18,756 bases of DNA, taken from positions 1 to 18,756 of IMG/VR virus record IMGVR_UViG_2660237951_000012, one strand, 5' to 3'. The notes below the pieces were generated by a model. It had not been told where the DNA came from and ran no database searches. It was given only the letters and a program-made list of their open reading frames with translations. The stretch is from a virus (Duplodnaviria > Heunggongvirae > Uroviricota > Caudoviricetes). This document shows, piece by piece, positions 889 through 17,360 of the stretch. Position numbers and translations under genes: made by a program. The stretch's first letter is position 1; every line of letters starts with the position of its first letter.

Positions 889-916
889 TAAAAAATAAGC
901 CCGTGTAAGGGAGATT
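889..916 (+). repeat. attL core of the P2-like prophage
   Basis: TAAAAAATAAGCCCGTGTAAGGGAGATT is repeated exactly at 17223..17250 in direct orientation. It matches the P2 att core as remembered and lies next to the int gene. Confidence 0.85.
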
Positions 917-995: not shown

Positions 996-2009
996 TTACT
1001 CTACTGTGGACACTATGTGGACACTCTCGGCCTCAGTACCACCTCTTAGCGGATTAAGAGAAATGGCGTCCTGAAGGTACTCTGGCGCAAAATGAGCGTA
1101 AACCATAGTTTGCTCAATCCGCGTGTGACCTAGTATCCGTTGTAGCGTGATAATACTTCCTCCATTAATCATGAAATGAGTGGCAAAGCTGTGCCTTAGT
1201 GCATGTGTGGCTTGCCCCATTGGCAAATCCGGTTTTATTGCTTTCATTGTTCGTCTGAAGCGAGGGTAATCAGCATCAGGGAATAAAAAACCTCGTTTGT
1301 TATCCGCGATCATTTTGGCAACAGCCTCTGAGATCGGGACGGTGCGTGGTTTGTTTGTTTTCGTTTTAACAAACGTGACGCGGTTATGGATGATATTTTC
1401 TGCTTTCAAACGAGCTGCTTCTCCCCAACGTGCTCCAGTACTCAGGCAAAGAATCGCAATCTTTTTGTTGTCGCCGTCAAGAGCAGCAAGCAGTAAGGCA
1501 ATTTCTTCCTGCGTGAGATAGCCTGTGTCTGGTTTTTCCTCCTTAAGCCTTTTTGTCCCTCTGATAGGGTGCTCACCAAAGAATAACTCCGCTTCAATCA
1601 GGGCTGTAAACATGCCGCTAATACATGTTAAATCACGATTGATACTCGAAGGTTTAATACCCTGACTTCTTCGGGTGGCGCAGTACTGGCTGATAAGCGA
1701 TTTCGTAATTTGAAATGCGCATGGGTCATTCGTTATTTTTGTGAAGATTTCAATTTTTCCAAGATTAGATTTCCCATGCTCTTCGTGTTTACCCTTTAAA
1801 TCCCACCAGATCTGTGTCAGCTCCGACAGACGTCGCTTGTCTGTTGGTTTTGATAGCCATTCTTTATTGTGGTGGTTGTACAACGTGTATTTCTCGAAAG
1901 CGACAGCTTCGCTTTTCTTATCAAACTTCCTACGGATGCGTTTTCCATTACGTCCAGTAGGGCGGATGTCCACTTCATATCGACCATCATCGAGTTTTTT
2001 GATTGCCAT
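996..2009 (-). CDS. int: P2-type tyrosine integrase
   Basis: 337-aa translation (MAIKKLDDGRYEVDIRPTGRNGKRIRRKF...HALRHSFATHFMINGGSIITLQRILGHTRIEQTMVYAHF) matches remembered P2 Int, with the R...HxxR...Y catalytic signature; adjacent to attL. Confidence 0.95.
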   Translation of the reverse strand: MAIKKLDDGRYEVDIRPTGRNGKRIRRKFDKKSEAVAFEKYTLYNHHNKEWLSKPTDKRRLSELTQIWWDLKGKHEEHGKSNLGKIEIFTKITNDPCAFQITKSLISQYCATRRSQGIKPSSINRDLTCISGMFTALIEAELFFGEHPIRGTKRLKEEKPDTGYLTQEEIALLLAALDGDNKKIAILCLSTGARWGEAARLKAENIIHNRVTFVKTKTNKPRTVPISEAVAKMIADNKRGFLFPDADYPRFRRTMKAIKPDLPMGQATHALRHSFATHFMINGGSIITLQRILGHTRIEQTMVYAHFAPEYLQDAISLNPLRGGTEAESVHIVSTVE

Positions 2010-2124: not shown

Positions 2125-2424
2125 TTAACCAGTCTTTTGACCGGAGTGGGGCGACGTTGTTTCGTTTTGCCCAAAGTGTGCGAGAGCGGGCGCAATTTGC
2201 CCGGACTCAGGAGCGATCTGATTGGTCATGAACCATAAAGTGTATTTGGTGAATTGTGGGGTCTGCAGGATGTTCATCATGACATCTGTTGGAGGTGTTG
2301 AACGACCACTTTCATAGTAACTCAGCGTGCCATACGGAACCCCTGTTAAATCAGCAAGTTGTTGTCTGCTCAAATACTCTGATTTTCGCATTAAGACTAT
2401 CTTCTCGCTTATCGTGTTTGACAT
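2125..2424 (-). CDS. C: P2 immunity repressor C
   Basis: 99 aa, MSNTISEKIVLMRKSEYLSRQQLADLTGVPYGTLSYYESG..., helix-turn-helix; divergent from cox as in P2. Confidence 0.9.
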   Translation of the reverse strand: MSNTISEKIVLMRKSEYLSRQQLADLTGVPYGTLSYYESGRSTPPTDVMMNILQTPQFTKYTLWFMTNQIAPESGQIAPALAHFGQNETTSPHSGQKTG

Positions 2425-2538: not shown

Positions 2539-2814
2539 ATGAGCAAGCAAGTAACACTCATGACTGATGCGATTCCTTATCAGGAGTTCGCAAAACTAAT
2601 AGGAAAATCGACAGGAGCGGTTCGTCGGATGATTGATAAAGGAAAGCTGCCTGTAATTGATATGACCGATCCACAATCAGCTTCAGGTCGTGCAGGTGAA
2701 TATTGGGTATACCTTCCGGCATGGAATAACGGACTAAAACTGGCTTATGAAAGCCGCCCTAAAGAGATTCGTGACGGCTGGTTGATGTGGTTGTGCCTTT
2801 ATGACAGTGGATGA
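2539..2814 (+). CDS. cox: P2 Cox (excision and lytic-switch regulator)
   Basis: 91 aa, MSKQVTLMTDAIPYQEFAKLIGKSTGAVRRMIDKGKLPVIDMTDPQSASGRAGEYWVYLPAWNNGLKLAYESRPKEIRDGW; the last codons may be altered by the adjacent rearrangement junction. Confidence 0.88.
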   Translation: MSKQVTLMTDAIPYQEFAKLIGKSTGAVRRMIDKGKLPVIDMTDPQSASGRAGEYWVYLPAWNNGLKLAYESRPKEIRDGWLMWLCLYDSG

Positions 2815-3040
2815 AATACGCATCGCGGATAACGGCGCGTTTTGTCGCTTCCGGCCACTTTTCATCCCACCTGTCGACCGAAAACGCCCACGCCAGCCAC
2901 GGCAGCAGATTTGCCGGACAGGTGTCCGGGTTCCACAGCTCACGAATACTGACCGGCGTTTTTTCAATTTCCGCACAGGCTTTTGCGGCGGCGACCTCAA
3001 GCGGTGATGAGCCGGTCGGCAGCAGTCGCGAATCACTCAT
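2795..3040 (-). pseudogene. I: tail protein I, N-terminal fragment (3' end lost at junction with cox)
   Basis: MSDSRLLPTGSSPLEVAAAKACAEIEKTPVSIRELWNPDTCPANLLPWLAWAFSVDRWDEKW...HCHKGT matches remembered P2 gpI up to about residue 82, then diverges and terminates. Inverted relative to canonical prophage order. Confidence 0.7.
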
Positions 3041-3359
3041 CCGAGCCTCCGGTCACGACGCGGTATTCGGTACAGAAAGACGCCTGCGTACTGTTGAGCA
3101 CGATGTCGGCCAGTGGTGCAGCCAGTTCGACACGCTGCACACCTTCCACATGCAAAGCGGCATAAATGGCAGACAGACGGATGTCGCGCCCCAGCCGGTG
3201 CTGTGCCGTGATATACGCTTCCAGCTTTTTCACAGCGGCAGCGCGGATGGGTTCGCTTTCGGGACCAGGGTAAAGGTAAAGCGTGGCGTTTATCTGGTAT
3301 TCAACGATGGCGGCAGACTGCACGGTCAGCCGGTCTTCAAAACGCTTAAACTCATTCAT
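3033..3359 (-). pseudogene. J: baseplate protein J, C-terminal portion (108-aa ORF)
   Basis: Sits immediately upstream of I with an ATGAGTGA start/stop overlap, as J does in P2; C-terminus ...TEYRVVTGGSDE. P2 J is about 302 aa, so only the C-terminal third is present. Identity rests on gene order plus partial recollection. Confidence 0.55.
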
Positions 3360-3740
3360 CCCACTTACTCACCAGTTCGCCATTGATATAAAGCTCCATC
3401 GGGCGGGTGACCGGCTCCGGCGGCGGAGGTTCCGGGATATTCTTCACATGCAGCGCACCGTCAACCTCACTGACCAGCGTGCGCTCGGTCAGCATCAGGC
3501 TGATGCTGATATCAAAGCTGCTGTCATTGTTGATGTCCGCATAAAACGTGAAGCCCTTTTTCTGGCCTTCGTCGGTGGTCATGATGTCGGGCTGATTTTC
3601 CCGCAGCCACGCCAGCACCGGCACGATGAGCAGGTCAAAATCACCGGTAAAGTCGGTCACAATGACATTGAGCGTGTAACGCTTTTCGAATGACAGCGAC
3701 GTCGCCAGTGTGGAGGCAATACTCCCGTTATCCGTCGTGG
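3352..3740 (-). pseudogene. C-terminal fragment of an unresolved P2-like late (virion morphogenesis) protein
   Basis: Protein-like sequence ...TDFTGDFDLLIVPVLAWLRENQPDIMTTDEGQKKGFTFYADINNDSSFDISISLMLTERTL...MELYINGELVSKWDE ending in an ATGAATGA overlap with the downstream ORF. The N-terminal 50 residues of the listed ORF are Gly/Ala-rich and look like antisense of the P fragment. Family not identified. Confidence 0.35.
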
Positions 3741-3963
3741 CTGTCTGGAATATGACGTCAGCGCCACCGACATCACCAGCTCGTTTATGGCTATCCGCAA
3801 GACCATGACCAGCAGCGGACGCAGTGCCACCTATGAGGCCAGCCGCAGCGAGGAAGCCAGCCACGCCGACCTCGCCTGGGCGACCATGCACGCCCTGTTA
3901 AATGAGCCACTCACCGCCGGTATCAGCACCCCGCTGACATCCACCATTCTGGAGTTTTACTGA
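3741..3963 (+). pseudogene. P: terminase large subunit P, C-terminal remnant
   Basis: The frame ending in TGATG overlap with the Q start codon translates to ...MAIRKTMTSSGRSATYEASRSEEASHADLAWATMHALLNEPLTAGISTPLTSTILEFY. P precedes Q in the P2 P-Q operon; only about 70 codons remain (an internal ATG at 3787 would give 58 aa). Confidence 0.4.
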
Positions 3964-4997
3964 TGAGCAAGAAAAAAGGGAAAACACCGCAACCTGCGGC
4001 AAAAAAAATGACCGCCAGCGCCCCGAAAATGGAGGCATTCACCTTTGGTGAGCCGGTGCCGGTACTCGACCGCCGTGACATTCTGGATTACGTCGAGTGC
4101 ATCAGTAACGGCAGATGGTATGAGCCACCGGTCAGCTTTACCGGTCTGGCAAAAAGCCTGCGTGCTGCCGTGCATCACAGCTCACCGATTTACGTCAAAC
4201 GCAATATTCTGGCCTCGACATTTATCCCGCATCCGTGGCTTTCCCAGCAGGATTTCAGCCGCTTTGTACTGGATTTTCTGGTGTTCGGTAATGCGTTTCT
4301 GGAAAAGCGTTACAGCACCACCGGTAAGGTCATCAGACTGGAAACCTCACCGGCAAAATATACCCGCCGTGGTGTGGAAGAGGATGTTTACTGGTGGGTG
4401 CCGTCCTTCAACGAGCCGACAGCCTTCACGCCCGGCTCCGTGTTTCACCTGCTGGAGCCGGATATTAATCAGGAGTTGTACGGCCTGCCGGAATATCTCA
4501 GCGCCCTTAATTCTGCCTGGCTGAATGAGTCGGCCACGCTGTTCCGCCGAAAGTATTACGAAAATGGCGCTCATGCCGGATACATTATGTACGTCACCGA
4601 TGCCGTGCAGGATCGCAACGATATCGAAATGCTTCGCGAAAACATGGTTAAGTCGAAAGGCCGCAACAACTTTAAAAATCTGTTTCTCTATGCCCCACAG
4701 GGGAAAGCCGACGGCATCAAAATTATCCCGCTCAGTGAAGTGGCAACGAAGGACGATTTTTTTAATATCAAAAAAGCCAGCGCCGCAGACCTGCTGGACG
4801 CACACCGCGTCCCCTTTCAGTTGATGGGCGGCAAGCCGGAGAATGTCGGGTCACTGGGTGATATTGAGAAAGTGGCAAAAGTATTCGTGCGAAATGAACT
4901 TACTCCACTCCAAAACCGGCTCAGTGAGGTCAATCATTGGGTAGGAGAATCAGTAATATGTTTTAAAAATTACAAACTTAGCGATGAGGATTATTAG
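3963..4997 (+). CDS. Q: portal protein Q
   Basis: 344 aa, MSKKKGKTPQPAAKKMTASAPKMEAFTFGEPVPVLDRRDILDYVECISNGRWYEPPVSF... matches remembered P2 gpQ at the same length. Orientation is inverted relative to int/C/cox. Confidence 0.92.
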   Translation: MSKKKGKTPQPAAKKMTASAPKMEAFTFGEPVPVLDRRDILDYVECISNGRWYEPPVSFTGLAKSLRAAVHHSSPIYVKRNILASTFIPHPWLSQQDFSRFVLDFLVFGNAFLEKRYSTTGKVIRLETSPAKYTRRGVEEDVYWWVPSFNEPTAFTPGSVFHLLEPDINQELYGLPEYLSALNSAWLNESATLFRRKYYENGAHAGYIMYVTDAVQDRNDIEMLRENMVKSKGRNNFKNLFLYAPQGKADGIKIIPLSEVATKDDFFNIKKASAADLLDAHRVPFQLMGGKPENVGSLGDIEKVAKVFVRNELTPLQNRLSEVNHWVGESVICFKNYKLSDEDY

Positions 4998-5002
4998 CCT
5001 AT

Positions 5003-5029
5003 AAAAAAGGCCGCAGAGCGGCCTTTTTT
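5003..5029. terminator. bidirectional intrinsic terminator between convergent Q and the 835-aa gene
   Basis: A6-GGCCGC-aga-GCGGCC-T6: GC stem flanked by an A-run and a T-run, so it can terminate on both strands. Confidence 0.7.
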
Positions 5030-5030
5030 A

Positions 5031-7505
5031 TTATACCTTTGTAATATGCTTTAATATTTCAATCACTTTAGCAACATATGATTGACTTACGCCGCCATCT
5101 CCTTCATATTCAGATATTTTATTTAAAGACTGTTTACATGCTTCCATATATTTAACTTTATTACTCTTCGATAGCTTATTGTAATTTGACAAATGAAAAT
5201 CTTTATATCTCGAAAACTGCCTCAGAGAGTAAATATCCACATCCAAATTACTAAGAAGGTTGTTTGCCTTTTCGAAATTAGAGAATACAATATTACCATC
5301 TGGTATCTTTTCGCTTGAAAGCAAATATATTTTTGCTTGCTGGGTATCAATATTGTTCGTGTGATATTTTGCTCGCTTTTCAGCTAACGCATATGCCTGG
5401 TCAATATACTGTTGTGCTTTTGGGTAATTTTTGTAAGCAATAAAACACATTGCGTATTGCAACCAGAAGTGTGGGTTTGAATTTAGCCATGGAACTTCAA
5501 TTTTTAACTTTTCATAATATCGTTGTAGCGTTGATATTTTCATACTTTCAGGAAGCAGCTGCTCAACAAAAGAAAACCTGAGCATAGCTTTAAATATTCT
5601 ATCCTGTTCATAATCCTTAGAGTTTAATTGATTAAACCTTGATGCAATAGTAAGCATTCGCTCTATAATAACAGTAGGAGTGAAATTATTTTTTATTAGA
5701 TGTATGCAAAATAAACTAGACCCGTTAATGATCCTACCGCCATGGAAATTAAATATTGCCTTAAACGCACTGTTATTAGTAAAATCCGGATCATAAATCA
5801 AATCATTGCCTGCAAGATCAGATATAATCCCTCGATTCGTTTCAATGCCAAGTATTTGACAAAGACAAATTGAAATAATTGTGTTTTCATGACTCTTACT
5901 CTTTTTAATCCCGGTAATTAAATCACTTATCTTATTTTTTATTTGCGGCGACTCCAAAAGAGTAAGCAATGCAATTGAGAATTGACTGTTATTCTCATTA
6001 GCTAAATATCTTACCTTTTGCTCTACACTAAGCCCTGCATTATCTCCCCAAAGACCTAAGTTATCTATTATTTTTGAAAAATCTTTTAACTCTACCTCAT
6101 CTAACATATCAATATTTATTTCAGAATATTTGAATTTTATGCGCTCCAAATCATCTCTGTGATATTCATGATCTGCAACACGGGCAGTAGCAAGTATTAG
6201 TACATTTTCGTAAGCAGCTCTGCCCACATGTTCCATTAATTCAAGATTCTTCTCATACCCATCAAGTAATATGATATTTTTCATGGATGATTGTGCTATA
6301 TAGTCAATATCTGATATAAAATCACCATCTATATCGGCCACTGTATAAACATCATAACCACCGACGGATAAAACACTCCTTAGCTCTTTCAATAAGATGG
6401 TTTTTCCGTTTCCAAGCGCCGAATAAATAATTACATTTTTTGATTGTTCAATTAATGAAACAGCTTTATCAATTTCACTTCTTTTTACTAAAAACGGTAC
6501 CTTAGTATTACCAAGTATAAAATTATCAATATGATGATCATCCAAATCACCATACATCAACATTTTTTCAACCTCTTCATCTCTAATAGAACTTGATTCA
6601 TTGGTTATATCATGAAGAAAAAGTGACTGTAGCTTATACTCCTGCTCTTCTGATACTGAAGTAATATTATCTCTTATTCTATTGGCAAAACCACTCAAAC
6701 CTATAGGCAAAACGGTACCGAATTTTTCTAGAGTAAATTCTAATTCGATATCAGGATTGAGACTAGTTACAAAAAATGTTTTTTCTTTTAATTGAGGTAA
6801 GGTAGAAAGGATTTTTTTTATTTCAATATCATACATTGAATAACCGATAAAAACGATCGCGCCACACCTATCTAAATCTCTTTTAAAATAATAGAACCAT
6901 TCAGAGTCAGTAAAAGAGTCAGGGCTTGAATAAGATGAATCAGAAAGTTTGAATGAATCATCAAGCGTTTCAGTAGAAATATTATTAATTGAACCATTAA
7001 GATGAATACATAAATTCTTGCGCTTATAATATTCCTTTGTTTTATGCTCAAGATCTATAGTTTCGAATTTATTACCGGATGATTCAGCTGCGATCTCAAA
7101 ACATCGGTCATAATTAGTTGTGTAACAACGTTTCCATGGTAGCGATGCGATTATATTTTGGTTCTCCGATGTTGTTTTTATAGAATAATTATAAATTAAT
7201 AGTTCTATTAATTTTAATGACGAGTTTTTTGCTAAGTAATAATCAGAAGAAAAGCGTAGGTTATCATTTTTAGGTATTGAACAAAGACCACATAATATAT
7301 GAGATAGCTCTATTGAAGAAGAAGGATTAGTATCATTAATATTCGTAGCTTCTTTAGAGAAACCCGCCCCCAAAAACAACATTGCCTTTCCAGAACAAAT
7401 ATTTGTAACTAGTTTAGCATAATCAATAGTTTGCTTGCTAATAATCAACTCTGTAAAATTAATATCCATTATAAAACCTATCATATAAATTAAGTGGGAT
7501 TTCAT
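5031..7505 (-). CDS. SIR2-like domain / P-loop NTPase / TPR-like repeat protein, candidate anti-phage defence
   Basis: The N-terminus carries the SIR2-type motif set LFLGAGFS, TTNYD, IHLNGS and VFIGYSMYD. The middle has a Walker A-like YSALGNGKT, Walker B-like NIILLDGYE and LILATAR. The C-terminus is helical and repeat-like. The listed ORF starts on TTG at 7538; ATG at 7505 (or 7469) is more likely. Strongly AT-rich by eye. Confidence 0.8.
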   Translation of the reverse strand: MKSHLIYMIGFIMDINFTELIISKQTIDYAKLVTNICSGKAMLFLGAGFSKEATNINDTNPSSSIELSHILCGLCSIPKNDNLRFSSDYYLAKNSSLKLIELLIYNYSIKTTSENQNIIASLPWKRCYTTNYDRCFEIAAESSGNKFETIDLEHKTKEYYKRKNLCIHLNGSINNISTETLDDSFKLSDSSYSSPDSFTDSEWFYYFKRDLDRCGAIVFIGYSMYDIEIKKILSTLPQLKEKTFFVTSLNPDIELEFTLEKFGTVLPIGLSGFANRIRDNITSVSEEQEYKLQSLFLHDITNESSSIRDEEVEKMLMYGDLDDHHIDNFILGNTKVPFLVKRSEIDKAVSLIEQSKNVIIYSALGNGKTILLKELRSVLSVGGYDVYTVADIDGDFISDIDYIAQSSMKNIILLDGYEKNLELMEHVGRAAYENVLILATARVADHEYHRDDLERIKFKYSEINIDMLDEVELKDFSKIIDNLGLWGDNAGLSVEQKVRYLANENNSQFSIALLTLLESPQIKNKISDLITGIKKSKSHENTIISICLCQILGIETNRGIISDLAGNDLIYDPDFTNNSAFKAIFNFHGGRIINGSSLFCIHLIKNNFTPTVIIERMLTIASRFNQLNSKDYEQDRIFKAMLRFSFVEQLLPESMKISTLQRYYEKLKIEVPWLNSNPHFWLQYAMCFIAYKNYPKAQQYIDQAYALAEKRAKYHTNNIDTQQAKIYLLSSEKIPDGNIVFSNFEKANNLLSNLDVDIYSLRQFSRYKDFHLSNYNKLSKSNKVKYMEACKQSLNKISEYEGDGGVSQSYVAKVIEILKHITKV

Positions 7506-7566
7506 AGTTAGTTCATTTCTGAACACAAAGCAAGTCAATAGCCATAATAAAATCTTTAACGCGCAG

Positions 7567-7585
7567 TGCTTTCCCCGCCTCGCCC
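7567..7585 (-). other. P2 cos site (19-nt cohesive end)
   Basis: Minus strand reads GGCGAGGCGGGGAAAGCAC, a 19/19 match to the P2 cohesive end as remembered; orientation agrees with the inverted segment. Confidence 0.8.
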
Positions 7586-8154
7586 GCCCGCTTCATGTGG
7601 CGGTTTTAATGCAGTTGCATAGATACTATGGATCCGCACCAGCTCTGACCGCGAGCAGCTGGAACGGGCATCCCCGACGCATGCAAAAACATTCACTTGT
7701 TGCATGCACGGCTTATTTAATGACAAATCAACTTAAGCGTCACCGCAGCTCCCACAAAAAAACGTAACACCATGATTTTAGTGATATTTATGACTTTTTT
7801 AATTGCTTATTTAAGTCCGCCATATTGAAACCGTGCATTTTTTAGCCACCAATAACTTTAAAAAATTTACATTGCTTTCAATACCTTATCATCCGTAGTC
7901 CCTGCTTTTTACTTTGAGCTATATCAAAAAAAGCTCAAACATCCTTGATGCAAAACCAGTATTACACAACATAAAATGCAACCAGAAACAACGACATACT
8001 ATATGTTGTGTTGTTCAGGCTCTCTGTTCGGTGATATGCCAGATCACTTTGCGTTTAAACAGAGCATTATTTCAGGGCAAGACTTCGCTAAATAGTAACT
8101 CCGCCTCAGAAGCGCATATATCGGCGGAAATTGCCCTCTGCTTACAGGAGGAGA

Positions 8155-8268
8155 TATGAAGAAGTGCTATTACTGCATTCTCGTTCTGGCCCTCTTTGGC
8201 TATCCATATGGTAGTCCAAGTGGTTTGTCAGTAAACGTCAGTAATATCCATGTAAGTATTATTCTTTA
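8155..8268 (+). CDS. hypothetical 37-aa hydrophobic peptide
   Basis: ATG preceded by strong AGGAGG Shine-Dalgarno at 7-nt spacing; MKKCYYCILVLALFGYPYGSPSGLSVNVSNIHVSIIL; followed by a hairpin with T-run. No recognisable homology. Confidence 0.35.
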
Positions 8269-8282
8269 GTATGCTTCAAACA

Positions 8283-8311
8283 AAAAAACCACCTGCCAGG
8301 GTGGTTTTTTT
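8283..8311 (+). terminator. putative intrinsic terminator
   Basis: AAAAAAACCACCTGCCAGGGTGGTTTTTTT: CCACC/GGTGG stem followed by a T7 run. Confidence 0.5.
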
Positions 8312-8571
8312 GCGCCTGTCATCATTCCGATGAAAGACTAGCAAGACTTCGCTCGAGATGAATTATGCTTCGACAAAAGGTCACTCGCAATGGTTTTATT
8401 AGCCGAAATAGATGCTCTTTTATGACTCGAATCAAATAGCTGCCTTAAATTACATGCTAGCGATTCAATACAATTTAGCCTTCTACTTCAGCATGCTATT
8501 GCTCCTCATCTGCATTAGAGGCGCTTCGCATAATCCATTCAAAGGCATATAAAATCACGCTGCATTTTTAC

Positions 8572-10848
8572 TCAAATGGGTAACAAAAATCCAGGCCACT
8601 CATCAGCGACCTGATAATTGAAATATTTCCCGTAATAATTTACGGTCGCGCCACGCGCCAGCGCCTCAAGCTCCCATCGCTGCGGCCTGATACCGTTCTG
8701 AGCAAGGTCAACGCGGATACGGGTAATTTGCATTCTTTCCGACCGGGTCAGTCTGGCCGATGGTGCAATTTCATGTGGTTTTAACGGGCTTCCGTTTCTT
8801 TGCTGACGATTTGGTGTTCTCAGGTCGTGTTTTAATGCCCCCCTGAGCGCCCTCACGACCTCCGTGTCATTCCATTCGATAACACCGTCATCAACCAGAT
8901 TAAGCACGGCTGCGGCGTGTTCAGAAGGTGTGGGAGCCGGTAACGAAGTATCACCACCGGTGAGCTTTCCACAGTTATTGACAGGACTCCGAGGCGCGGC
9001 GATGCCGCTTTTTAAAGTCAAAGGCTCAACGACCGGCACTTTCGGAACAATGCGCCAGTCCGTCGTTCTGGTGATATGAATATGACGCGCGCCGAGATGC
9101 GGCGCGTAAATGCCGACCACTCTCTCGACTTCTTCCTCGTACTCGTTAACGTCATCCGACGGGCTACGGGCGACCCTGACAGTCTGACAATCGCGCGGGA
9201 CATTTGCCCCGCCCTGCGCGCTGATATACAACGCAAAATCACCACTGTCTGCAGCGGCGCGTGCAGCCTCGACGCGCTCGTCAAACTCATCAGCAATGCT
9301 GACGCCGCGAGGCAATTTGCGTAGTTCACGGTAAGCCCCCATTGTCGGCAGACCAACCGTTTTAAATTGCGGAATGCGCCACGTTGACGCCCATGCGGTA
9401 ACAGCAGCAGCTGTGTCTTTCAGCGGCCTACCGGTATCATTATCGAGCTGACCATCCAGTGCATAGCCGTCGATGTTTTTTGAGATGTATTTCGCGATAT
9501 ATCCCGCAGCACCGCCCCGGTTAAGGTGTTTTGCCTGAAAACGGTTTCGCGCGGCTCCTCTTTCGTCGCCATCCTCTTTGAGCGCATAGCGACGCATGAT
9601 TTCAATAATCTGGTTACGCTGGCGTGGATTACAAAAAAGCATCATATGCCAGTGCGGCGTTCCGTCGTGGTGTGGTTCAACAACACGCAAACCGTAGGCC
9701 TGTAAATCATTATCCTTGAATGCCGTGCGCATCAGGCTCCAGATACGGCAGAGATAACGCTGCGCATCCTTTGGATTAAATGCCTCATCGTTCCAGCCGT
9801 GATTTAGCTGGACGGTTTTACTTTCGCCTTTTCTGACCTGACGTGTCGGGTGATACTTTGACGGCGCGGTCAGCGTGATAAACATCCCCACATCACCCTC
9901 TGCGGCGGCGTAACGCTCAATACCGGCGATGGTGTTCATCAGCTCCATCCGGCGAATTTCTGGATTAGAAATACTGCCCATCACCTTACTGATAAGGTCG
10001 ATGCGCTCGCCGGTTTCCTTGTTTTCAAGGTCACACGATTTAAGAAATTCCAGATTTGCCTGGCGGCGCGCACGCACATCACGAATGGCATGTTTACTGG
10101 CATAAGGAGAACGGTCTTTATTGACCTCCCCGACAGCAATCAGTAACGCCTCATGCCAGCGCATACGCTGGCCTTTAAGCTGATGAGTCCACCACTCATC
10201 GTTAAACAGGCGGGCAATGGCAGAATATGCCTGCCTCGTGGTCATCTGCCCTTTACGGTATTTTTTCCAGTAAAGCGGGGAAATATTGAAAGCACGTGCA
10301 GCGCCAGCAACATGACCATACAGATGTGCCTGCGCCTCATCCGTAAACAGCGATTCTTTTTCGCCATGCGCATCCACCCAGGCATCGCAGAGTTCCTCAT
10401 ACATCATGAAAAGCTGCGATGAGATACGGGCAGCAAACTTTTTCAGCTCCTTGTCATTCATTCCCGGCAGGCGCGCATAGTGGTCACGCTCTGCCAGAAA
10501 CAGCAACGACGCGTCGGTGTTCATTTCATGGCGCTGATTCACACGCTCAATGCGCGGCCATAAACGACGCTGAAAAGTGGATGTGAGGAAATAAAACCCG
10601 TGCACCGGGCTTTTATTGCGCCGGATGTAGTCATAGCGTGAAGTAAACAGCGAGCGCAAAAAGTAAGGCAGGCGGTTAATCGTGGATAAAACACCTTGCA
10701 CCTGACGCATCTCGTCACGTGTAAGGGGTCTTTCGCGCCCGACAGCCTCGCGTGGCGCGTTCCATGCATAAGCACCGGTAAACGCCTTACCGGTGCCTGC
10801 GGCAAATGCTGACGGAGGGACAAAACGCCCGGAGGCTTTAACGGCCAT
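8572..10848 (-). CDS. A: replication initiation endonuclease A (rolling-circle initiator)
   Basis: Matches remembered P2 gpA across its length (MAVKASGRFVPPSAFAAGTGK...HWHMMLFCNPRQ...YIAKYISKNIDGY). The listed ORF begins 14 codons upstream at 10890; the internal ATG at 10848 corresponds to the P2 start. Confidence 0.9.
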   Translation of the reverse strand: MAVKASGRFVPPSAFAAGTGKAFTGAYAWNAPREAVGRERPLTRDEMRQVQGVLSTINRLPYFLRSLFTSRYDYIRRNKSPVHGFYFLTSTFQRRLWPRIERVNQRHEMNTDASLLFLAERDHYARLPGMNDKELKKFAARISSQLFMMYEELCDAWVDAHGEKESLFTDEAQAHLYGHVAGAARAFNISPLYWKKYRKGQMTTRQAYSAIARLFNDEWWTHQLKGQRMRWHEALLIAVGEVNKDRSPYASKHAIRDVRARRQANLEFLKSCDLENKETGERIDLISKVMGSISNPEIRRMELMNTIAGIERYAAAEGDVGMFITLTAPSKYHPTRQVRKGESKTVQLNHGWNDEAFNPKDAQRYLCRIWSLMRTAFKDNDLQAYGLRVVEPHHDGTPHWHMMLFCNPRQRNQIIEIMRRYALKEDGDERGAARNRFQAKHLNRGGAAGYIAKYISKNIDGYALDGQLDNDTGRPLKDTAAAVTAWASTWRIPQFKTVGLPTMGAYRELRKLPRGVSIADEFDERVEAARAAADSGDFALYISAQGGANVPRDCQTVRVARSPSDDVNEYEEEVERVVGIYAPHLGARHIHITRTTDWRIVPKVPVVEPLTLKSGIAAPRSPVNNCGKLTGGDTSLPAPTPSEHAAAVLNLVDDGVIEWNDTEVVRALRGALKHDLRTPNRQQRNGSPLKPHEIAPSARLTRSERMQITRIRVDLAQNGIRPQRWELEALARGATVNYYGKYFNYQVADEWPGFLLPI

Positions 10849-11113
10849 ATGAGCCAAAAGCCTCTGAACAACGCTTGCTGAGTTGCTCAACCTGCGCGTT
10901 TAAATCAGCAAAAGACTTTGCGCTTCCGGTCAGAATATCGTGATGCATCAGGCCGGAAACGAGCTGGCTTAATTTCGGGTAATAACCAACCACCGCCAGC
11001 CATTCCTGACCGGCGTTTTTACCGCTTTCCGCTCTCTTTTTCTCGTGGAGAATAAACTGAAAGCTGTCACTGGTAACGACATAACGTTCGCCAATTTCAA
11101 TACGAATACTCAT
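10838..11113 (-). CDS. small P2 early-region protein upstream of A (orf83-like)
   Basis: 91 aa with GGAG Shine-Dalgarno 6 nt upstream of the ATG; its stop overlaps the A start. Position matches the small ORFs that precede A in P2; function unknown. Confidence 0.5.
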   Translation of the reverse strand: MSIRIEIGERYVVTSDSFQFILHEKKRAESGKNAGQEWLAVVGYYPKLSQLVSGLMHHDILTGSAKSFADLNAQVEQLSKRCSEAFGSYGR

Positions 11114-11188
11114 GCCGTTCTCCGGTAATGTTTGTTTTTTGCTTCAAAGACTGACTGGCAGGAAACACAACGCGTGGCTGACGGATAA

Positions 11189-12784
11189 GCCGCACGACGG
11201 GCACAGGACGCCACCACAGCACGAAAAGGCCTTGTCCAGCTCAGTAGTGCCACCAACAGCACGTCTGAAACGCTCGCTGCAACACCAAAAGCGGTAAAAG
11301 CAGCATATGACCTTGCTAACGGGAAATATACCGCACAGGACGCCACCACAGCGCGAAAAGGCCTTGTCCAGCTCAGTAGCGCCACCAACAGCGATTCTGA
11401 AACGCTTGCGGCAACACCAAAGGCGGTTAAGACAGCGTATGACCTTGCTAACGGGAAATACACTGCACAGGATGCCACTACAGCGCGAAAAGGTCTTGTC
11501 CAGCTCAGTAGCGCCACCAACAGTGATTCTGAAACGCTGGCCGCAACACCAAAAGCGGTGAGGTCTGCCTATGACAATGCTGAAAAACGTCTTCAGAAAG
11601 ATCAGAACGGTGCGGATATTCCGGGAAAGGATACCTTCACGAAAAATATCGGTGCCTGTCGTGCTTATAGCGGCGCTTTGAGCACTGAAGCCGGAAACTG
11701 GACAACCGCGCAGTTTATTGACTGGCTAGAGTCTCAGGGAGCCTTTAATCATCCCTACTGGATGTGCAAGTGTTCCTGGTCATACGGTAATAACAAAATT
11801 ATTACCGATACTGACTGTGGGACTATTCATCTTGCAGGTTGCGTGATTGAGGTTATGGGCGTTAAAGCAGCAATGACCATTCGTGTGACCACTCCGAGTA
11901 CATCAAGCGGTGGTGGTACCACCAGTGCGCAATTCACGTATATCAATCACGGAGCTGATTATGCGCCGGGCTGGCGACGCGACTACAATACGAAAAATAA
12001 GCAACCGGCTTTTGCATTAGGGAAAACAGGAAATACGGTTGCAAATAATAAAGCGGTAGGATGGAACTGGGACAGTGGTGCTTATTGTGCACAGGATGGC
12101 GGAGCATCAAAAATGGTGCTGCATTTTTACACGGGTGAGGGAAGTTGTCCGGCAATGCAGTTTCTTGTGGATTATAAAAACAGGGGGATTTTTTACAGGT
12201 CGGCACGTGATGGGTATGGATTTGAGGCTGACTGGTCAGAGTTTTATACAACATCACGAAAGCCAACACCTGCGGATATTCTTGCTCTGGCATTATCAGG
12301 CGGAAGCATGTCAGGCAGCATAAAATTTATCAATGATGCCTTCCTGATTTGGGAAAGAAACACTGACTGGGCGAAAATTGGATTTAAAAATGATTCAGAT
12401 GCTGATTCTGACTCATACATGTGGTTTGAAACTGGTGATAATGGCAATGAATATTTTAAATGGCGCATCAGGTCTGGCAGCACAACAAAAGATCTGATGA
12501 CGCTTAAGTCTGATGCACTACGGGTTACCGGGCAGGTGATACCATCAAATTTCAGCAATTTTGACTCCCGCTATGTCCGGGATCTCCGACTTGGTGGTGC
12601 AGCCACATACAAACCTGCGAACAATGGCATGACATGGACACATCAGGCACCGTCCGGGTGTGTATATACCGGCATTATTGTTCAGGATACCGGCTCAAAC
12701 TCTGCCGATAACATTGGTGGCGTATATTACAGACCGGTTCAGAAATACATTAACGGGACATGGTACAACGTGGCGCAGGTATAA
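11189..12784 (+). pseudogene. H: tail fibre protein H, 5'-truncated
   Basis: The frame is open from the stop at 11186 with no ATG, GTG or TTG before the GTG at 11558. It encodes the H repeat region, the conserved WERNTDWAKIGFKNDSDADSDSYMWFETGDNGNEYFKWR block and the C-terminus RPVQKYINGTWYNVAQV. The roughly 200 N-terminal residues of P2 H are absent. Confidence 0.8.
11201..11575 (+). repeat. tandem 132-bp repeats (about 2.8 copies) in the tail-fibre H gene
   Basis: The unit encoding AYDLANGKYTAQDATTARKGLVQLSSATNS(D/T)SETLAATPKAVKT recurs with period 132 nt (TATGACCTTGCTAACGGGAAATA at 11306 and 11438). It generates the spurious ORFs 11110..11520(-) and 11307..11561(+). Confidence 0.85.
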
Positions 12785-13392: not shown

Positions 13393-13510
13393 TACCGGAC
13401 ATACTGAGCAGAAGGCTAAAAAGGACGCTTTCAGGACATATAGCAAGGGAGCAAGGATGAAAGAATTAACCAAGTATATTTAATGTTTCAATCATGATAG
13501 TTTCTGAATT

Positions 13511-13533
13511 AAAGGGGGCTACCCACCCCCTTT
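13511..13533 (-). terminator. putative hairpin terminator downstream of the 92-aa gene
   Basis: AAAGGGGG-ctaccca-CCCCCTTT stem-loop immediately after the stop at 13536; flanking T-run is weak. Confidence 0.4.
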
Positions 13534-13535
13534 AA

Positions 13536-13814
13536 TTACTTGTTCCACTCAGTCAGAATTTGGTTACTAACTTCATCTGAGAGATTGTACCAATAAGCTG
13601 AGTTATTGGTTGCGTCTACAACAATAAGCTTATCATCACTATCCATGACCGCCCTCACAATTTTGGCTGCATCCTCGGCAGAGTAACTACAGTTAACATA
13701 CCAGTTCGATTCAGTTGTTAAAGCCCAATTTCCTAAAGATTTAATTGCATCATACACAGCCGCATAATCTTTCGTTTTAATGAGGTCGTAAGTAATAAAT
13801 AAATTATTAGCCAT
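13536..13814 (-). CDS. hypothetical 92-aa protein (Z/fun-position cargo)
   Basis: ATG with GGGAG Shine-Dalgarno 8 nt upstream; MANNLFITYDLIKTKDYAAVYDAIKSLGNWALTTESNWYV...; no homology recognised. Confidence 0.6.
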   Translation of the reverse strand: MANNLFITYDLIKTKDYAAVYDAIKSLGNWALTTESNWYVNCSYSAEDAAKIVRAVMDSDDKLIVVDATNNSAYWYNLSDEVSNQILTEWNK

Positions 13815-13840
13815 AAATCATCTCCCAAAGGACAAAGAAA

Positions 13841-13866
13841 AAAGCGCCTAGAAAGGCGCTCATATA
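13841..13866 (-). terminator. intrinsic terminator between the DUF3606-like gene and the 92-aa gene
   Basis: Minus strand reads AGCGCC-tttcta-GGCGCT followed by TTTTTTCTTT, lying between the stop at 13867 and the next Shine-Dalgarno. Confidence 0.6.
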
Positions 13867-14046
13867 TTAATGGTCTTTAAGCCATGCCTGTACTTTCTTA
13901 GCCGAATGACCTACAGCCTGTACGGCTTGAACAAGTTTGGCCTCGCTAACTCCAAACTTTTCAGCCCAATCACGTCTCTCGTAATCCTGTTTGATACTTA
14001 TTAAATCATTGTCAGGGGTACCGATTTTGGTCTTATCATCAGCCAT
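13867..14046 (-). CDS. DUF3606-like small protein
   Basis: MADDKTKIGTPDNDLISIKQDYERRDWAEKFGVSEAKLVQAVQAVGHSAKKVQAWLKDH with GAGGA Shine-Dalgarno upstream of this ATG; the listed ORF extends to 14085. The motif pattern resembles the DUF3606 family from memory. Confidence 0.55.
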   Translation of the reverse strand: MADDKTKIGTPDNDLISIKQDYERRDWAEKFGVSEAKLVQAVQAVGHSAKKVQAWLKDH

Positions 14047-14537
14047 TTTACTGATTCCTCGTGATACAGGCTTATACCTGCCCATTAGTTATATGGCTCC
14101 CGTGCTGCTTCGTAAACGTTCAATAATCAAACAATTGACACTGATCATAAAACCAGTTATAGGATTTGACTCTAGCTTGGATATATGATGATGCCACCCC
14201 CTTTATATTGTTGTCGGTAACTCACAGACATTGAACTCATGCTGGTGAGTGAAAGGCTACATAAACGCCCAACATTTAAACTGCCCTCAGCAGCGTTCGC
14301 GGAGCAATATACAGGCTTCGTATTCAATCCTTGCCCTACGAGAAACCCTAGCCGTTGCCTCGTTTTCAAGTGTCAGGAAGTTCTTTGTCAGACCTCATAC
14401 AGTCTTGGGCTGGGTGAGGTGCATGGGGGAAGTTGAAGCCTTAACTGTTGAGGTAAATCGAACCATAAGTGTGCAATTTTTCAAGCCCGGCGCTATTTTA
14501 GTATTGAAAACAATTAGTACGCCCCCAAGGACAACTC

Positions 14538-15230
14538 ATGATCGAATTTATCGCAGAGCATATAAACACAGTAAGTACACTTATCTCCGCTTTGGCAGCA
14601 TTGCTAACAGCAGTTGCTACATTTTTCTTGTGGAGAGTAACAAGGCTATTAGCAGACGAGACAAAAAGGATGGTTGACGCATCAGTTCAACCTCATGTCG
14701 TTGTGACTCTTGAACCAAATTCTTGGGCTGCTTTTTATTTTGATATCAATATTGCTAATACCGGAAATGCCCCAGCCTATGATATTGAAGTCGGATTTAA
14801 TCCCCCACTGGTTAATGCAGAACATAGAAAAAATGAAGGTATACCATTTAGCAAGGTTAGCGTATTGAAAAACGGCCATTCCCTTAACAGCAGTCTTTGT
14901 AAGTATGACCAGATTAAAGATCAAGTTTATTCTGTTAGTATTAGCTGGTCTAAACAGCCGGGCTCAACTGAAAGAGAGCGGAATGAGTATTCTTATGATA
15001 TGGCTTCTTTCGAGGGGGTTAGCTACTTAGGTGCAAGGAGTCCAATGACACAGATAGCTGAGCAGATGAAAAAGATTAGAGAAGACTGGAGGCCGATTTC
15101 CCAGGGAAGCAAAAAAATTAAAACAGACAACTATAATTCAAGTGACAGAGCCGAGGAACAACGAGCACGTGAAGAGTGGTATCAGACCACTGCAAAGAAA
15201 TGGGATAAAGAAAAGCAAAAAGATAACTAA
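14538..15230 (+). CDS. hypothetical 230-aa membrane-anchored protein (Z/fun-position cargo)
   Basis: AAGGA Shine-Dalgarno 7 nt upstream; one N-terminal transmembrane helix (TLISALAALLTAVATFFLW), a central domain and a Lys/Glu-rich C-terminal tail; followed by a terminator. No homology recognised. Confidence 0.7.
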   Translation: MIEFIAEHINTVSTLISALAALLTAVATFFLWRVTRLLADETKRMVDASVQPHVVVTLEPNSWAAFYFDINIANTGNAPAYDIEVGFNPPLVNAEHRKNEGIPFSKVSVLKNGHSLNSSLCKYDQIKDQVYSVSISWSKQPGSTERERNEYSYDMASFEGVSYLGARSPMTQIAEQMKKIREDWRPISQGSKKIKTDNYNSSDRAEEQRAREEWYQTTAKKWDKEKQKDN

Positions 15231-15360
15231 TACAATTGACCTGCTCCCCATAAATTAGCATACCACAATCTCAGGTCCGCTCTTCGCTCAAAACAGGCTG
15301 TCAGATTTGACAGAATTTTGGTTACGTAATTTGTCAGTTGGAAACAGAGAGAGTACAAAT

Positions 15361-15490: not shown

Positions 15491-15658
15491 ATGAGTGACT
15501 ATCATCATGGCGTGCAGGTGCTGGAGATTAACGACGGCACCCGCGTGGATGAATCACTGGCCGCGCTTTATGGCGATATCGGTAAACAGGCGGAGTCGCT
15601 CATCGGTAAGGCTGGCAGTATGGCGACCAGATTCACGGGTATGACGGGGGCGGGATAA
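15491..15658 (+). pseudogene. in-frame fusion remnant: tail sheath FI N-terminus joined to tail protein U C-terminus
   Basis: The 55-aa ORF starts MSDYHHGVQVLEIN (remembered FI start) and ends ...SMATRFTGMTGAG with a TAATG overlap onto D, which is the natural U/D junction. Implies deletion of FI, FII, E, T and most of U. Confidence 0.55.
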
Positions 15659-17222: not shown

Positions 17223-17250
17223 TAAAAAATAAGCCCGTGTAAGGGAGATT
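17223..17250 (+). repeat. attR core of the P2-like prophage
   Basis: Exact copy of 889..916; overlaps the 3' terminator end of cyaR on the opposite strand. Confidence 0.85.
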
Positions 17251-17310
17251 ACACAGGCTAAGGAGGTGGTTCCTGGTACAGCTAGCATTTTATGGGTTAT
17301 GTTTTTCAGC
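17224..17310 (-). ncRNA. cyaR: CyaR (RyeE) Hfq-dependent small RNA
   Basis: Minus strand reads GCTGAAAAACATAACCCATAAAATGCTAGCTGTACCAGGAACCACCTCCTTAGCCTGTGTAATCTCCCTTACACGGGCTTATTTTTT, matching CyaR as remembered, including the terminator that forms the P2 att core. Confidence 0.85.
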
Positions 17311-17360
17311 GAAACGGATGATAACCTTAATAAATGCAGCTGTATGTGATCGGTTTCTAA
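17311..17360 (-). promoter_or_regulatory. cyaR promoter with CRP-like site
   Basis: On the minus strand, a -10 TATCAT lies 7 nt upstream of the RNA 5' end and TTAGAAACCGATCACA (TCACA half-site) sits around -40. CyaR is known to be CRP-activated. Confidence 0.55.

What the first reader, a model, noticed from the sequence alone, without database searches (positions are those of the whole stretch)
7539..7913. Intact cos site retained in a prophage lacking terminase and capsid genes, with cargo between cos and Q
The 19-nt P2 cohesive-end sequence is present without mismatch at 7567..7585, only 29 nt from the start region of the 835-aa gene. The element has lost P (terminase ATPase) and all head genes but keeps cos, int, cox, A and Q. 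A cos-bearing defective element could in principle be excised and packaged in trans by a superinfecting P2-like helper, which would mobilise the candidate defence gene.
Basis: partly seen in the sequence, partly recalled or inferred. Interest (0 to 1): 0.45.

Follow-up and report, generated by a model that had tools for sequence, protein, structure and literature searches.

The report
Relic P2 cos in decayed prophage
A complete phage P2 DNA-packaging site survives next to a known antiviral gene (Avs5) inside a recently wrecked, partly inverted P2-like prophage; this is an ordinary by-product of prophage decay, and nothing shows that the wreck still travels.

Summary
The whole 55-bp P2/P4 cos core and a second conserved block to its right are present. 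The 359 bp around cos are identical to those of an intact sibling prophage.

The host element is a P2-like prophage at the classical P2 attachment site (yegR | cyaR-yegQ).

The cargo is an Avs5 (SIR2-STAND) homologue sitting in the published cos-proximal P2 defence hotspot.

Cos is best read as a young relic. The avs5-cos stretch differs from the intact sibling at 3 of 3000 positions, so its intactness says nothing about selection. The diagnostic junctions occur in only one assembly lineage.

The identical Avs5-cos module sits in many intact P2-like prophages on two different integrase/immunity backbones. Intact phages plus recombination therefore already explain its mobility.

Packaging in trans by a helper is mechanistically possible: att cores, int and cos are intact, and the excised circle would be 16.3 kb. 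It is unproven and hindered by P2-type immunity, loss of replication and size.

The parts
7566..7584 (-). 19-nt P2/P4 cohesive-end sequence (cos cleavage region)
   Evidence: Exact single match, 0 of 200 shuffles. Equals P2 1-19 / 33575-33593.
7559..7613 (.). 55-bp cos core shared by P2 and P4 (7 bp on the Q side + 19 + 29 bp on the A side)
   Evidence: Alignment with P2, P4, two sequenced phages and sibling prophages. Its 3 differences from P2 all occur in other natural elements. Homology on the Q side ends at -6/-7 in more than 30 elements.
7588..7603 (+). Short GC hairpin followed by TTTTAATGCA inside the core. Its 3' arm is naturally variable.
7679..7707 (.). Second conserved block right of cos: inverted repeat GCATGCAA-N13-TTGCATGC, conserved in P2, P4 and P2-like phages. 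Candidate terminase-recognition flank (inferred).
   Evidence: Alignment; conservation profile over 112 unique sequences.
5031..7505 (-). Cargo gene avs5 (SIR2-STAND NTPase-sensor). The start is ATG 7505 (824 aa) or ATG 7469 (812 aa).
   Evidence: Pfam SIR2_2 plus weak nSTAND. Full-length match to PDB 9JAP EfAvs5, E 3.9e-130. RefSeq annotates it 'SIR2 family protein'.
5001..5031 (.). Perfect 14-bp hairpin with T/A runs on both sides: a likely bidirectional terminator between Q and avs5
   Evidence: I9.
3963..4997 (+). Portal gene Q. The ORF is intact, but its operon promoter (upstream of P) is deleted.
   Evidence: 324/344 identical to P2 Q.
3726..3962 (+). Remnant of terminase ATPase gene P (last 79 codons only)
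   Evidence: Matches P2 1458-1221.
7585..8571 (.). Spacer between cos and A (988 bp, the 'empty' state of the A-side cargo slot). Contains the conserved small ORF 8156-8269.
   Evidence: Cos-A distances of 898-992 bp are the minimum class. Conservation shown.
8572..10890 (-). Replication endonuclease gene A (ori nick site at about 8990 by P2 coordinates). The ORF is intact but inverted and separated from the early promoter Pe.
   Evidence: and (735 identical residues against P2 A's 761).
2793..11207 (.). Block inverted relative to the prophage ends. It also holds internal deletion junctions at about 3323-3335 (J'/S') and 3726-3733 (R'/P').
   Evidence: blastn against P2. Colinear with intact M172-1 only over 3726-11207.
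890..916 (+). attL core (27 bp, identical to the P2 attP core)
17224..17250 (+). attR core (27 bp, identical to the P2 attP core), overlapping the 3' end of cyaR
996..2009 (-). Integrase, 335/337 identical to P2 Int
2125..2424 (-). Immunity repressor C, 99/99 identical to P2 C. Pc, Pe, O1 and O2 are unchanged.
2539..2814 (+). Chimeric cox (residues 1-86 as in P2; the last 5 residues and the stop come from inverted gene I sequence)
   Evidence: This exact protein is on record in one contig only.
16903..17121 (+). ogr late-gene activator, identical to P2 Ogr

Best explanation
This is the ordinary cos packaging site of a P2-type phage. It survives as a young relic inside a decayed, rearranged P2-like prophage at the classical P2 attachment site (3' end of cyaR, between yegR and yegQ).

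The intact ancestor had the order int-C-cox-B-A-[spacer]-cos-avs5-Q-P-heads-tails-ogr. Several illegitimate deletions and one inversion then destroyed packaging, head, lysis, most tail functions and replication control. They happened to spare the contiguous block P'-Q-avs5-cos-spacer-A.

Cos lies 61-97 nt upstream of avs5. It therefore rides along with any selection to keep avs5 and its upstream region.

Shown:
- the sequence is complete by comparison with working phages;
- the element is defective;
- the cargo sits in the known P2 hotspot.

Inferred:
- The site could still be cut by a helper's gpP/gpM terminase, but the wreck is not a maintained mobile element.
- The Avs5 module moves in nature on intact P2-like phages, and by homologous recombination at its conserved flanks (Q on one side, cos core/spacer/A on the other). 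The wreck could also donate the gene to an incoming phage this way.
For: Completeness of cos:
- Exact 19-mer and full 55-bp core.
- The -120..+220 stretch around cos is identical to that of intact prophage M172-1.
- Core variants lie within natural variation and are shared with at least 8 intact-looking prophages.

The element is defective:
- The map against P2 shows five deletions and an inversion.
- The window is colinear with the intact sibling only over 3726-11207.

The relic is young:
- Only 3 differences from M172-1 in window 5000-8000. About 0.06 changes would be expected in 55 bp, so intactness carries no signal of selection.

Decay is independent and private:
- EC2001, NMBU-W12E19, L139 and L132 are other wrecks with different deletions.
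- This window's junctions are absent from 5426 complete E. coli genomes, IMG/VR, JGI metagenomes and GTDB representatives. They are on record in one NCBI contig, seen in 4 samples.

The cargo travels by other means:
- The identical 824-aa Avs5, with cos 61 nt upstream, occurs in intact P2-like prophages at two att sites with different int, C and cox.
- A sharp identity break falls just right of the 19-mer, between 7585 and 7596, in GTVSS-020: 99.4% to the left, 94% to the right.

Published context:
- The gpA-gpQ, cos-adjacent hotspot (PMC9122126).
- Defective P2 elements keep near-identical defence genes (PMC13586616).
Against: The element keeps an unusually complete set of cis sites for excision and packaging: both att cores, arm sites, Cox sites, int, cos and ori. 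An excised dimer would be 97% of P2 length. A residual helper-dependent transfer therefore cannot be excluded. No experiment was possible. The remnant is so young that absence of selection cannot be shown either; only absence of evidence for it.
Confidence: 0.75

Rival explanations
1. One reading: the wreck is a working hitchhiker. On infection by a P2-like helper it is excised by Int/Cox as a 16.3-kb circle, cut at cos and packaged into helper capsids as a monomer or dimer. This spreads avs5 in a satellite-like way.
For: - Complete cos.
- Perfect att cores, intact int and binding sites.
- The circle would be 16,334 bp, 48.6% of P2, and a dimer 97.2%.
- Closed circles with the 55-bp cos are the preferred substrate, and cosmids of about 43% of capsid capacity are packaged and delivered (PMC2231350).
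- P2 cosmid transduction is established (PMC9594776, PMC9942202).
- Heteroimmune P2-like phages with the same cos exist.
Against: - The P2-identical C repressor should block homoimmune helpers (P2 immunity is established knowledge).
- B is deleted and A/ori is inverted away from Pe. P2 A acts mainly in cis (my own knowledge), so no amplification is expected.
- Cox is chimeric.
- There are no satellite genes: against P4, only cos and ogr/delta match.
- The element keeps useless gene fragments, so it shows no streamlining.
- It is confined to one assembly lineage at the ancestral att site.
Confidence: 0.1
2. Cos is kept for a host-side or cargo-side function. It could be part of the avs5 promoter or 5' leader. 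Or it could act as a chromosomal decoy or tripwire that incoming P2-like terminase binds or cuts, helping defence.
For: Cos is always exactly 61 nt upstream of the 824-aa avs5 start in all 10 loci examined. All decayed siblings that keep avs5 also keep cos and the spacer. The only promoter-like hit on the avs5 strand upstream of the gene (7802-7775) lies beyond cos.
Against: The fixed spacing follows simply from the module being one recombination unit bounded by the cos core. The promoter scan is at chance level. No precedent is known to me. A chromosomal cut would harm the host.
Confidence: 0.05
3. The odd architecture (inversion plus deletions) is an assembly artefact of a draft genome holding one or more P2-like prophages. 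In that case the 'defective element with cos' would not exist as drawn.
For: The source is a 33.9-kb contig of a draft assembly. P2-like sequences are often multi-copy in E. coli (median 2 places per genome).
Against: Six clean junctions with intact flanking chromosome on both sides are not typical of a misassembly. The same contig is recorded in 4 samples. Comparable wrecks exist in closed genomes.
Confidence: 0.05

Closest known systems
cos sites of phages P2 and P4 (Ziermann & Calendar 1990, cited in PMC9122126, PMC9594776 and PMC2231350)
   Same: Identical 19-nt cohesive end. The same 55-bp core and the same second conserved block on the A/psu side.
   Different: Three single-base differences from P2 in the core, all seen in other natural elements. 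The Q-side flank is replaced by cargo from -7 onward, as in P4 and 6% of P2-like loci.
cos-proximal defence hotspot of P2-like phages, between gpA and gpQ (Rousset et al. 2022, PMC9122126)
   Same: Cargo lies between A and Q next to cos. The cargo is a SIR2-STAND (NLR-like) defence gene, a class listed for these hotspots.
   Different: The cargo is on the Q side of cos (6 of 94 loci) rather than on the usual A side, where P2 carries old and tin. Here the phage around it is wrecked.
Defective P2-like prophages that keep near-identical defence genes (PMC13586616, NAR 2026)
   Same: A decayed P2-like element with pseudogenised or deleted core genes. Its defence gene is identical at protein level to the one in intact elements.
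   Different: This is a private rearrangement that includes an 8.4-kb inversion. That paper raises recombination-based swapping as an open question, not cos-mediated packaging.
Satellite P4 and engineered P2/P4 cosmids (PMC2231350, PMC9594776, PMC9942202, PMC6893505)
   Same: They share the cos signal, rely on helper terminase and capsids, and are packaged from closed circles.
   Different: The element has no alpha primase, epsilon, sid or psu and no autonomous replication. At 16.3 kb it does not fit a P4-size head.
P2 remnant of E. coli K-12 at the same locus (ogrK, yegZ next to cyaR/yegQ; my own knowledge)
   Same: Same attachment site and the same ogr-D end retained.
   Different: The K-12 remnant has lost cos, the hotspot, int and C. 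The present element is at a much earlier stage of decay.
EfAvs5 (AVAST type 5; PDB 9JAP, PMC11897194)
   Same: Full-length homology, E 3.9e-130, with the SIR2-NOD-sensor architecture.
   Different: Different sequence; activity was not tested here. The PADLOC 2023 models hit only the SIR2 part.

Membership tests
P2/P4-type cos site | 19-nt cohesive-end sequence GGCGAGGCGGGGAAAGCAC | tested here: met
   Exact at 7566-7584.
P2/P4-type cos site | 55-bp core conserved between P2 and P4 | tested here: met
   7559-7613: 52 of 55 identical to P2, and the 3 variants are found in other natural elements, including intact-looking prophages.
P2/P4-type cos site | Conserved flank on the A/psu side (about 100-150 bp) that improves packaging | tested here: met
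   7614-7736 is 95% identical to sequenced phages MET_P1_103_31 and 720R8, and the GCATGCAA-N13-TTGCATGC block is shared with P2 and P4.
P2/P4-type cos site | Cleavage by gpP/gpM terminase and packaging into capsids | not testable with these tools
   Needs an in vivo transduction or in vitro cos-cleavage assay.
Functional P2-like (Peduovirus) prophage | Terminase P and M, scaffold O, capsid N, head completion L | tested here: not met
   P2 1458-8541 is absent; only 237 nt of P remain.
Functional P2-like (Peduovirus) prophage | Early operon Pe-cox-B-A contiguous; complete tail and lysis genes | tested here: not met
   B and orf78-82' are deleted, A is inverted, and S-J', I'-H' and FI-U' are deleted.
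P4-like satellite | Alpha primase/ori-crr, epsilon, delta-sid-psu helper-exploitation genes | tested here: not met
   tblastx/blastn against P4 finds only cos and ogr/delta similarity.
P2 cos-proximal defence hotspot | Variable cargo between gpA and gpQ, adjacent to cos | tested here: met
   avs5 lies between Q (ends 4997) and cos (7566), and A starts at 8572.
Avs5 (AVAST type 5) | N-terminal SIR2 effector + STAND NTPase + C-terminal sensor, homologous to characterised Avs5 | tested here: met
   Pfam SIR2_2 at 116-230 and weak nSTAND at 326-435. Residues 13-783 of 812 align to EfAvs5 9JAP, E 3.9e-130.
Avs5 (AVAST type 5) | NAD+ depletion and phage resistance | not testable with these tools
   Functional assay required.

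The most novel reading that the evidence does not exclude
The wreck is an incipient satellite. It is a half-genome-sized (16.3 kb) P2 remnant that keeps just the cis sites (attL/attR, cos, ori) and int/C/ogr. A heteroimmune or virulent P2-like helper would excise it and package it, as a monomer or as a dimer that fills 97% of a P2 head, carrying Avs5 into new hosts. That would be a natural example of a prophage decaying into a hitchhiker.
Probability: 0.07. Interest if true: 0.5.

Novelty: new member of a known kind. Interest (0 to 1): 0.2.

Why it matters
If the relic cos were used, decayed prophages would count as a hidden pool of helper-mobilisable defence islands, and as a possible evolutionary route from phage to satellite.

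As the evidence stands, the locus is a clear textbook case of three known things:
- the P2 cos-adjacent defence hotspot;
- rapid, independent decay of P2-like prophages around a retained defence gene;
- exchange of one cargo-plus-cos module between phage backbones.

Its practical value is as a well-mapped natural substrate. All junctions, att sites and cos are defined, so it could be used to test whether defective P2 elements still donate defence genes, by packaging or by recombination.

Tried and rejected
1. I tried to read selection from the intactness of cos. Rejected: the avs5-cos stretch differs from the intact sibling at only 3 of 3000 positions, so no change is expected in 55 bp either way.

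2. I first took the single-base change in the 19-mer of the decayed NMBU-W12E19 element as a sign of relaxed constraint. Rejected: the same G10A variant occurs in intact-looking prophages L130 and L134. It is a lineage polymorphism.

3. I looked for spread of this rearranged element:
- junction-spanning queries against 5426 complete E. coli genomes;
- exact junction 38-mer against IMG/VR, JGI metagenomes and GTDB representatives;
- look-up of the chimeric Cox protein.
Only the source contig was found.

4. I looked for inverted repeats or IS ends at the inversion end points and found none convincing. The inversion looks illegitimate.

5. Rfam scans of the cos-A spacer gave only sub-threshold noise.

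6. The promoter scan around avs5 and cos was at chance level. The avs5 promoter remains unassigned.

7. The primary paper on the minimal cos (Ziermann & Calendar 1990) and the 1993 P2/P4 review are not held in the library. The 55-bp figure is taken from papers that cite the 1990 paper, and from my own alignment.

8. The Avs5-cos junction 41-mer was not found in IMG/VR, metagenomes or GTDB representatives. The exact-protein look-up, however, showed many draft assemblies with it.

Full report
**Observation.**
The 19-nt P2 cohesive-end sequence GGCGAGGCGGGGAAAGCAC occurs once in the window, exactly, at 7566-7584 on the minus strand. None of 200 dinucleotide-preserving shuffles gave a match, even with three mismatches allowed.

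The '29 nt' distance refers to the longest possible TTG-started ORF (5031-7538). Gene callers start the gene at ATG 7505 (824 aa) or ATG 7469 (812 aa). That puts cos 61 or 97 nt upstream of the gene.

**What the surrounding element is.**
I mapped the window against P2 (NC_001895). The map reads:
- chromosome, 1-888;
- P2 24355-26258 at 889-2792: attL core, int, C, and cox without its last 22 nt;
- three inverted fragments: P2 12440-11898 (I', J') at 2793-3335; 8951-8541 (S', R') at 3323-3733; 1458-282 (last 79 codons of P, plus Q) at 3726-4902;
- 2.6 kb of non-P2 cargo;
- the cos core at 7560-7613;
- about 1 kb of spacer;
- P2 30294-27674 inverted (A, orf83, part of orf82) at 8588-11207;
- forward again: part of H, G, a cargo segment in the fun(Z) slot, the pF promoter with the first codons of FI fused to the end of U, then D, ogr and the attR core, ending at 17250;
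- cyaR and yegQ.

- B and orf78-82' are deleted.
- The lysis genes, S-J', I'-H' and FI-U' (sheath, tube, tape measure) are deleted.
- The whole block 2793-11207 is inverted relative to the ends.
- The inversion separates A (which contains ori) from the early promoter Pe.
- Q has lost its operon promoter.
- cox carries five foreign C-terminal residues.

I found no repeats that would explain the inversion.

**Is cos complete?**
I aligned the region with the circular junctions of P2 and P4, two sequenced phages (one record begins exactly at the cos end) and sibling prophages.
- The 55-bp block shared by P2 and P4 is present at 7559-7613: 7 bp on the Q side, the 19-mer, and 29 bp on the A side.
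- A second conserved block, GCATGCAA-N13-TTGCATGC at 7679-7707, is also shared by P2, P4 and the others.
- The window differs from P2 at three core positions. Among 120 cos-containing IMG/VR loci and the sibling prophages, each of these variants recurs. The 3' arm of the small hairpin in which two of them lie is naturally variable.
- On the Q side, sequence similarity among more than 30 natural elements (P4-like satellites and P2-like phages with Q-side cargo) stops 6-7 bp from the cohesive end. Cargo abutting cos at that point is therefore normal.
- The 359 bp from -120 to +220 are identical to those of an apparently intact prophage in E. coli M172-1.

By every comparative test available the site is complete. 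Whether terminase cleaves it cannot be tested here.

**The cargo and its position.**
The gene has a SIR2_2 domain and weak STAND NTPase matches. It aligns over nearly its full length (E 3.9e-130) to PDB 9JAP, the Avs5 protein of Escherichia fergusonii (PMC11897194). It is thus a homologue of a characterised antiviral STAND protein.

The interval between gpA and gpQ next to cos is a published hotspot for defence genes in P2-like phages (PMC9122126). Within it, cargo usually lies on the A side. In 94 IMG/VR loci with both cos and Q, the cos-Q distance is about 176 bp in 88 and 0.9-2.3 kb in six. The window has 2569 bp on the Q side and a minimal 988 bp on the A side. The arrangement is a minority one, but it is not new.

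**Relatives.**
Four of 5426 complete E. coli genomes carry this Avs5-cos arrangement, all at the same site between yegQ/cyaR and yegR.
- Two are intact-looking prophages: M172-1 and GTVSS-020.
- Two are wrecks with deletions different from those in the window: EC2001 and NMBU-W12E19. The latter also has an IS5 in avs5.

A look-up of the exact 824-aa protein found it in 86 index blocks. Among the ten places shown:
- six intact-looking prophages sit at the cyaR site with P2-type int and C;
- three prophages sit at a second site with a different integrase, repressor and Cox, and one of these is itself decayed;
- one further wreck sits at the cyaR site and has lost Q.

Cos lies 61 nt upstream of the gene in all ten.

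GTVSS-020 is 99.4% identical to the window up to position 7595. From there it diverges, with 13 differences in the next 120 bp and then 94% identity. That places a recombination boundary just right of the 19-mer, between 7585 and 7596. The Avs5-cos unit therefore moves between phage backbones by recombination and travels on intact phages.

**Is this wreck itself mobile?**
Its diagnostic junctions are absent from all 5426 complete genomes, and from IMG/VR, JGI metagenome contigs and GTDB representatives. The chimeric Cox protein is on record in a single NCBI contig (GCA_001484085.1, LLYC01000087.1), seen in four samples. That is the pattern of vertical inheritance in one lineage.

The wreck is also young. 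Across 5000-8000 it differs from M172-1 at only three positions, so an unchanged 55-bp core is what neutrality predicts. I first took a base change in the 19-mer of NMBU-W12E19 as a sign of drift. The same variant occurs in intact-looking prophages, so I dropped that argument.

**Could a helper mobilise it?**
These parts are in place:
- two perfect 27-bp att cores;
- intact Int arm sites (one mismatch) and Cox sites;
- int 335/337 identical to P2.

Excision would give a 16,334-bp circle, 48.6% of P2. Closed circles carrying the 55-bp cos are the preferred packaging substrate. Cosmids of about 43% of capsid capacity are packaged and delivered (PMC2231350). P2 cosmid transduction is routine (PMC9594776, PMC9942202).

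These points count against it:
- The repressor is identical to P2 C and its promoters and operators are unchanged. P2 vir1 or a heteroimmune helper would be needed, and such phages with the same cos do exist.
- The element's own cox stays repressed and is chimeric.
- B is missing and A is cut off from Pe. P2 A acts mainly in cis (my own knowledge), so the circle would not amplify.
- The circle is too large for P4-size capsids, and cos packaging is size-sensitive (PMC6893505).
- No satellite genes are present.

A more realistic route for the wreck to pass on avs5 is marker rescue. It offers an incoming P2-like phage 1.3 kb of Q-side homology and 3.6 kb of cos/spacer/A homology in the correct relative orientation. 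The recent literature raises exactly this as an open question for defective P2 elements (PMC13586616).

**Verdict.**
The feature is a complete, probably still cleavable P2 cos that persists as a hitchhiker beside a retained Avs5 gene in a recently wrecked prophage. It is a new instance of well-described phenomena. Interest is low to modest.

Noticed in passing
window 8156-8269 (+), with terminator-like hairpin 8281-8312: A 37-codon ORF (MKKCYYCILVLALFGYPYGSPSGLSVNVSNIHVSIIL) sits behind a strong AGGAGG ribosome-binding site. A long conserved upstream region (about 7860-8155) precedes it and a GC hairpin with a T-run follows it. The ORF keeps 37 codons in 16 P2-like loci, with 7 synonymous and 5 non-synonymous codon changes. 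It has no family match and is annotated only sporadically. It lies in the cos-A spacer that all decayed siblings retain. It may be a small membrane peptide or a type I toxin-like module (speculative).
   Followed up: partly
window 17227-17312 (-): The CyaR/RyeE sRNA gene (Rfam 100.7 bits) overlaps the attR core at 17224-17250. The P2 attachment site here is the 3' end of cyaR, and the prophage regenerates it.
   Followed up: partly
window 2793-11207: An 8.4-kb inversion of the P'-Q-avs5-cos-A block, plus deletion junctions at 2792/2793, about 3323-3335, about 3726-3733, 11201-11207 and about 15538-15546. No flanking repeats were found. The junctions are not seen in any other collection searched.
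   Followed up: yes
window 11201-11596: Three tandem 132-nt copies (100, 89 and 76% identity) inside the tail-fibre gene H fragment. The same repeats occur in intact H genes of other E. coli prophages, so they are a natural tail-fibre variant and not a product of the rearrangement.
   Followed up: partly
window 13400-15276: The second P2 cargo slot, the fun(Z) position between G and FI, holds uncharacterised genes: phrog_1090 (13536-13814, -), DUF3606/phrog_10779 (13867-14085, -) and phrog_11802 (14538-15230, +). None matches PADLOC.
   Followed up: partly
L007 (E. coli GTVSS-020) against window 7585-7715: Identity drops sharply, from 99.4% to about 94%, just right of the 19-mer. The first differences are at 7596 and 7598, inside the 55-bp core, which indicates that the conserved cos core serves as a recombination boundary for swapping cargo modules.
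   Followed up: partly
L130, L134, L139 (position 9922) and L008 (23866): A natural variant of the 19-nt cohesive end, GGCGAGGCGAGGAAAGCAC (G10A), is shared by intact-looking and decayed Avs5-carrying prophages. Whether P2-type terminases cut it equally well is unknown.
   Followed up: no
L132, L133, L138: The identical Avs5-cos module sits in P2-like prophages at a second chromosomal site (next to radical-SAM, flavodoxin-like and LysR genes). These have a different integrase (331 aa), repressor and a longer Cox (118-123 aa), so they are heteroimmune carriers of the same cargo.
   Followed up: partly
L131 8171-9715: One sibling prophage carries a reverse-transcriptase gene (RVT_1, retron-like) on the A side of cos in addition to Avs5 on the Q side. 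Both cargo slots flanking cos are filled.
   Followed up: no
window 5001-5031: A perfect 14-bp inverted repeat with flanking A/T runs lies between the convergent Q and avs5 genes. It is a likely bidirectional terminator.
   Followed up: no
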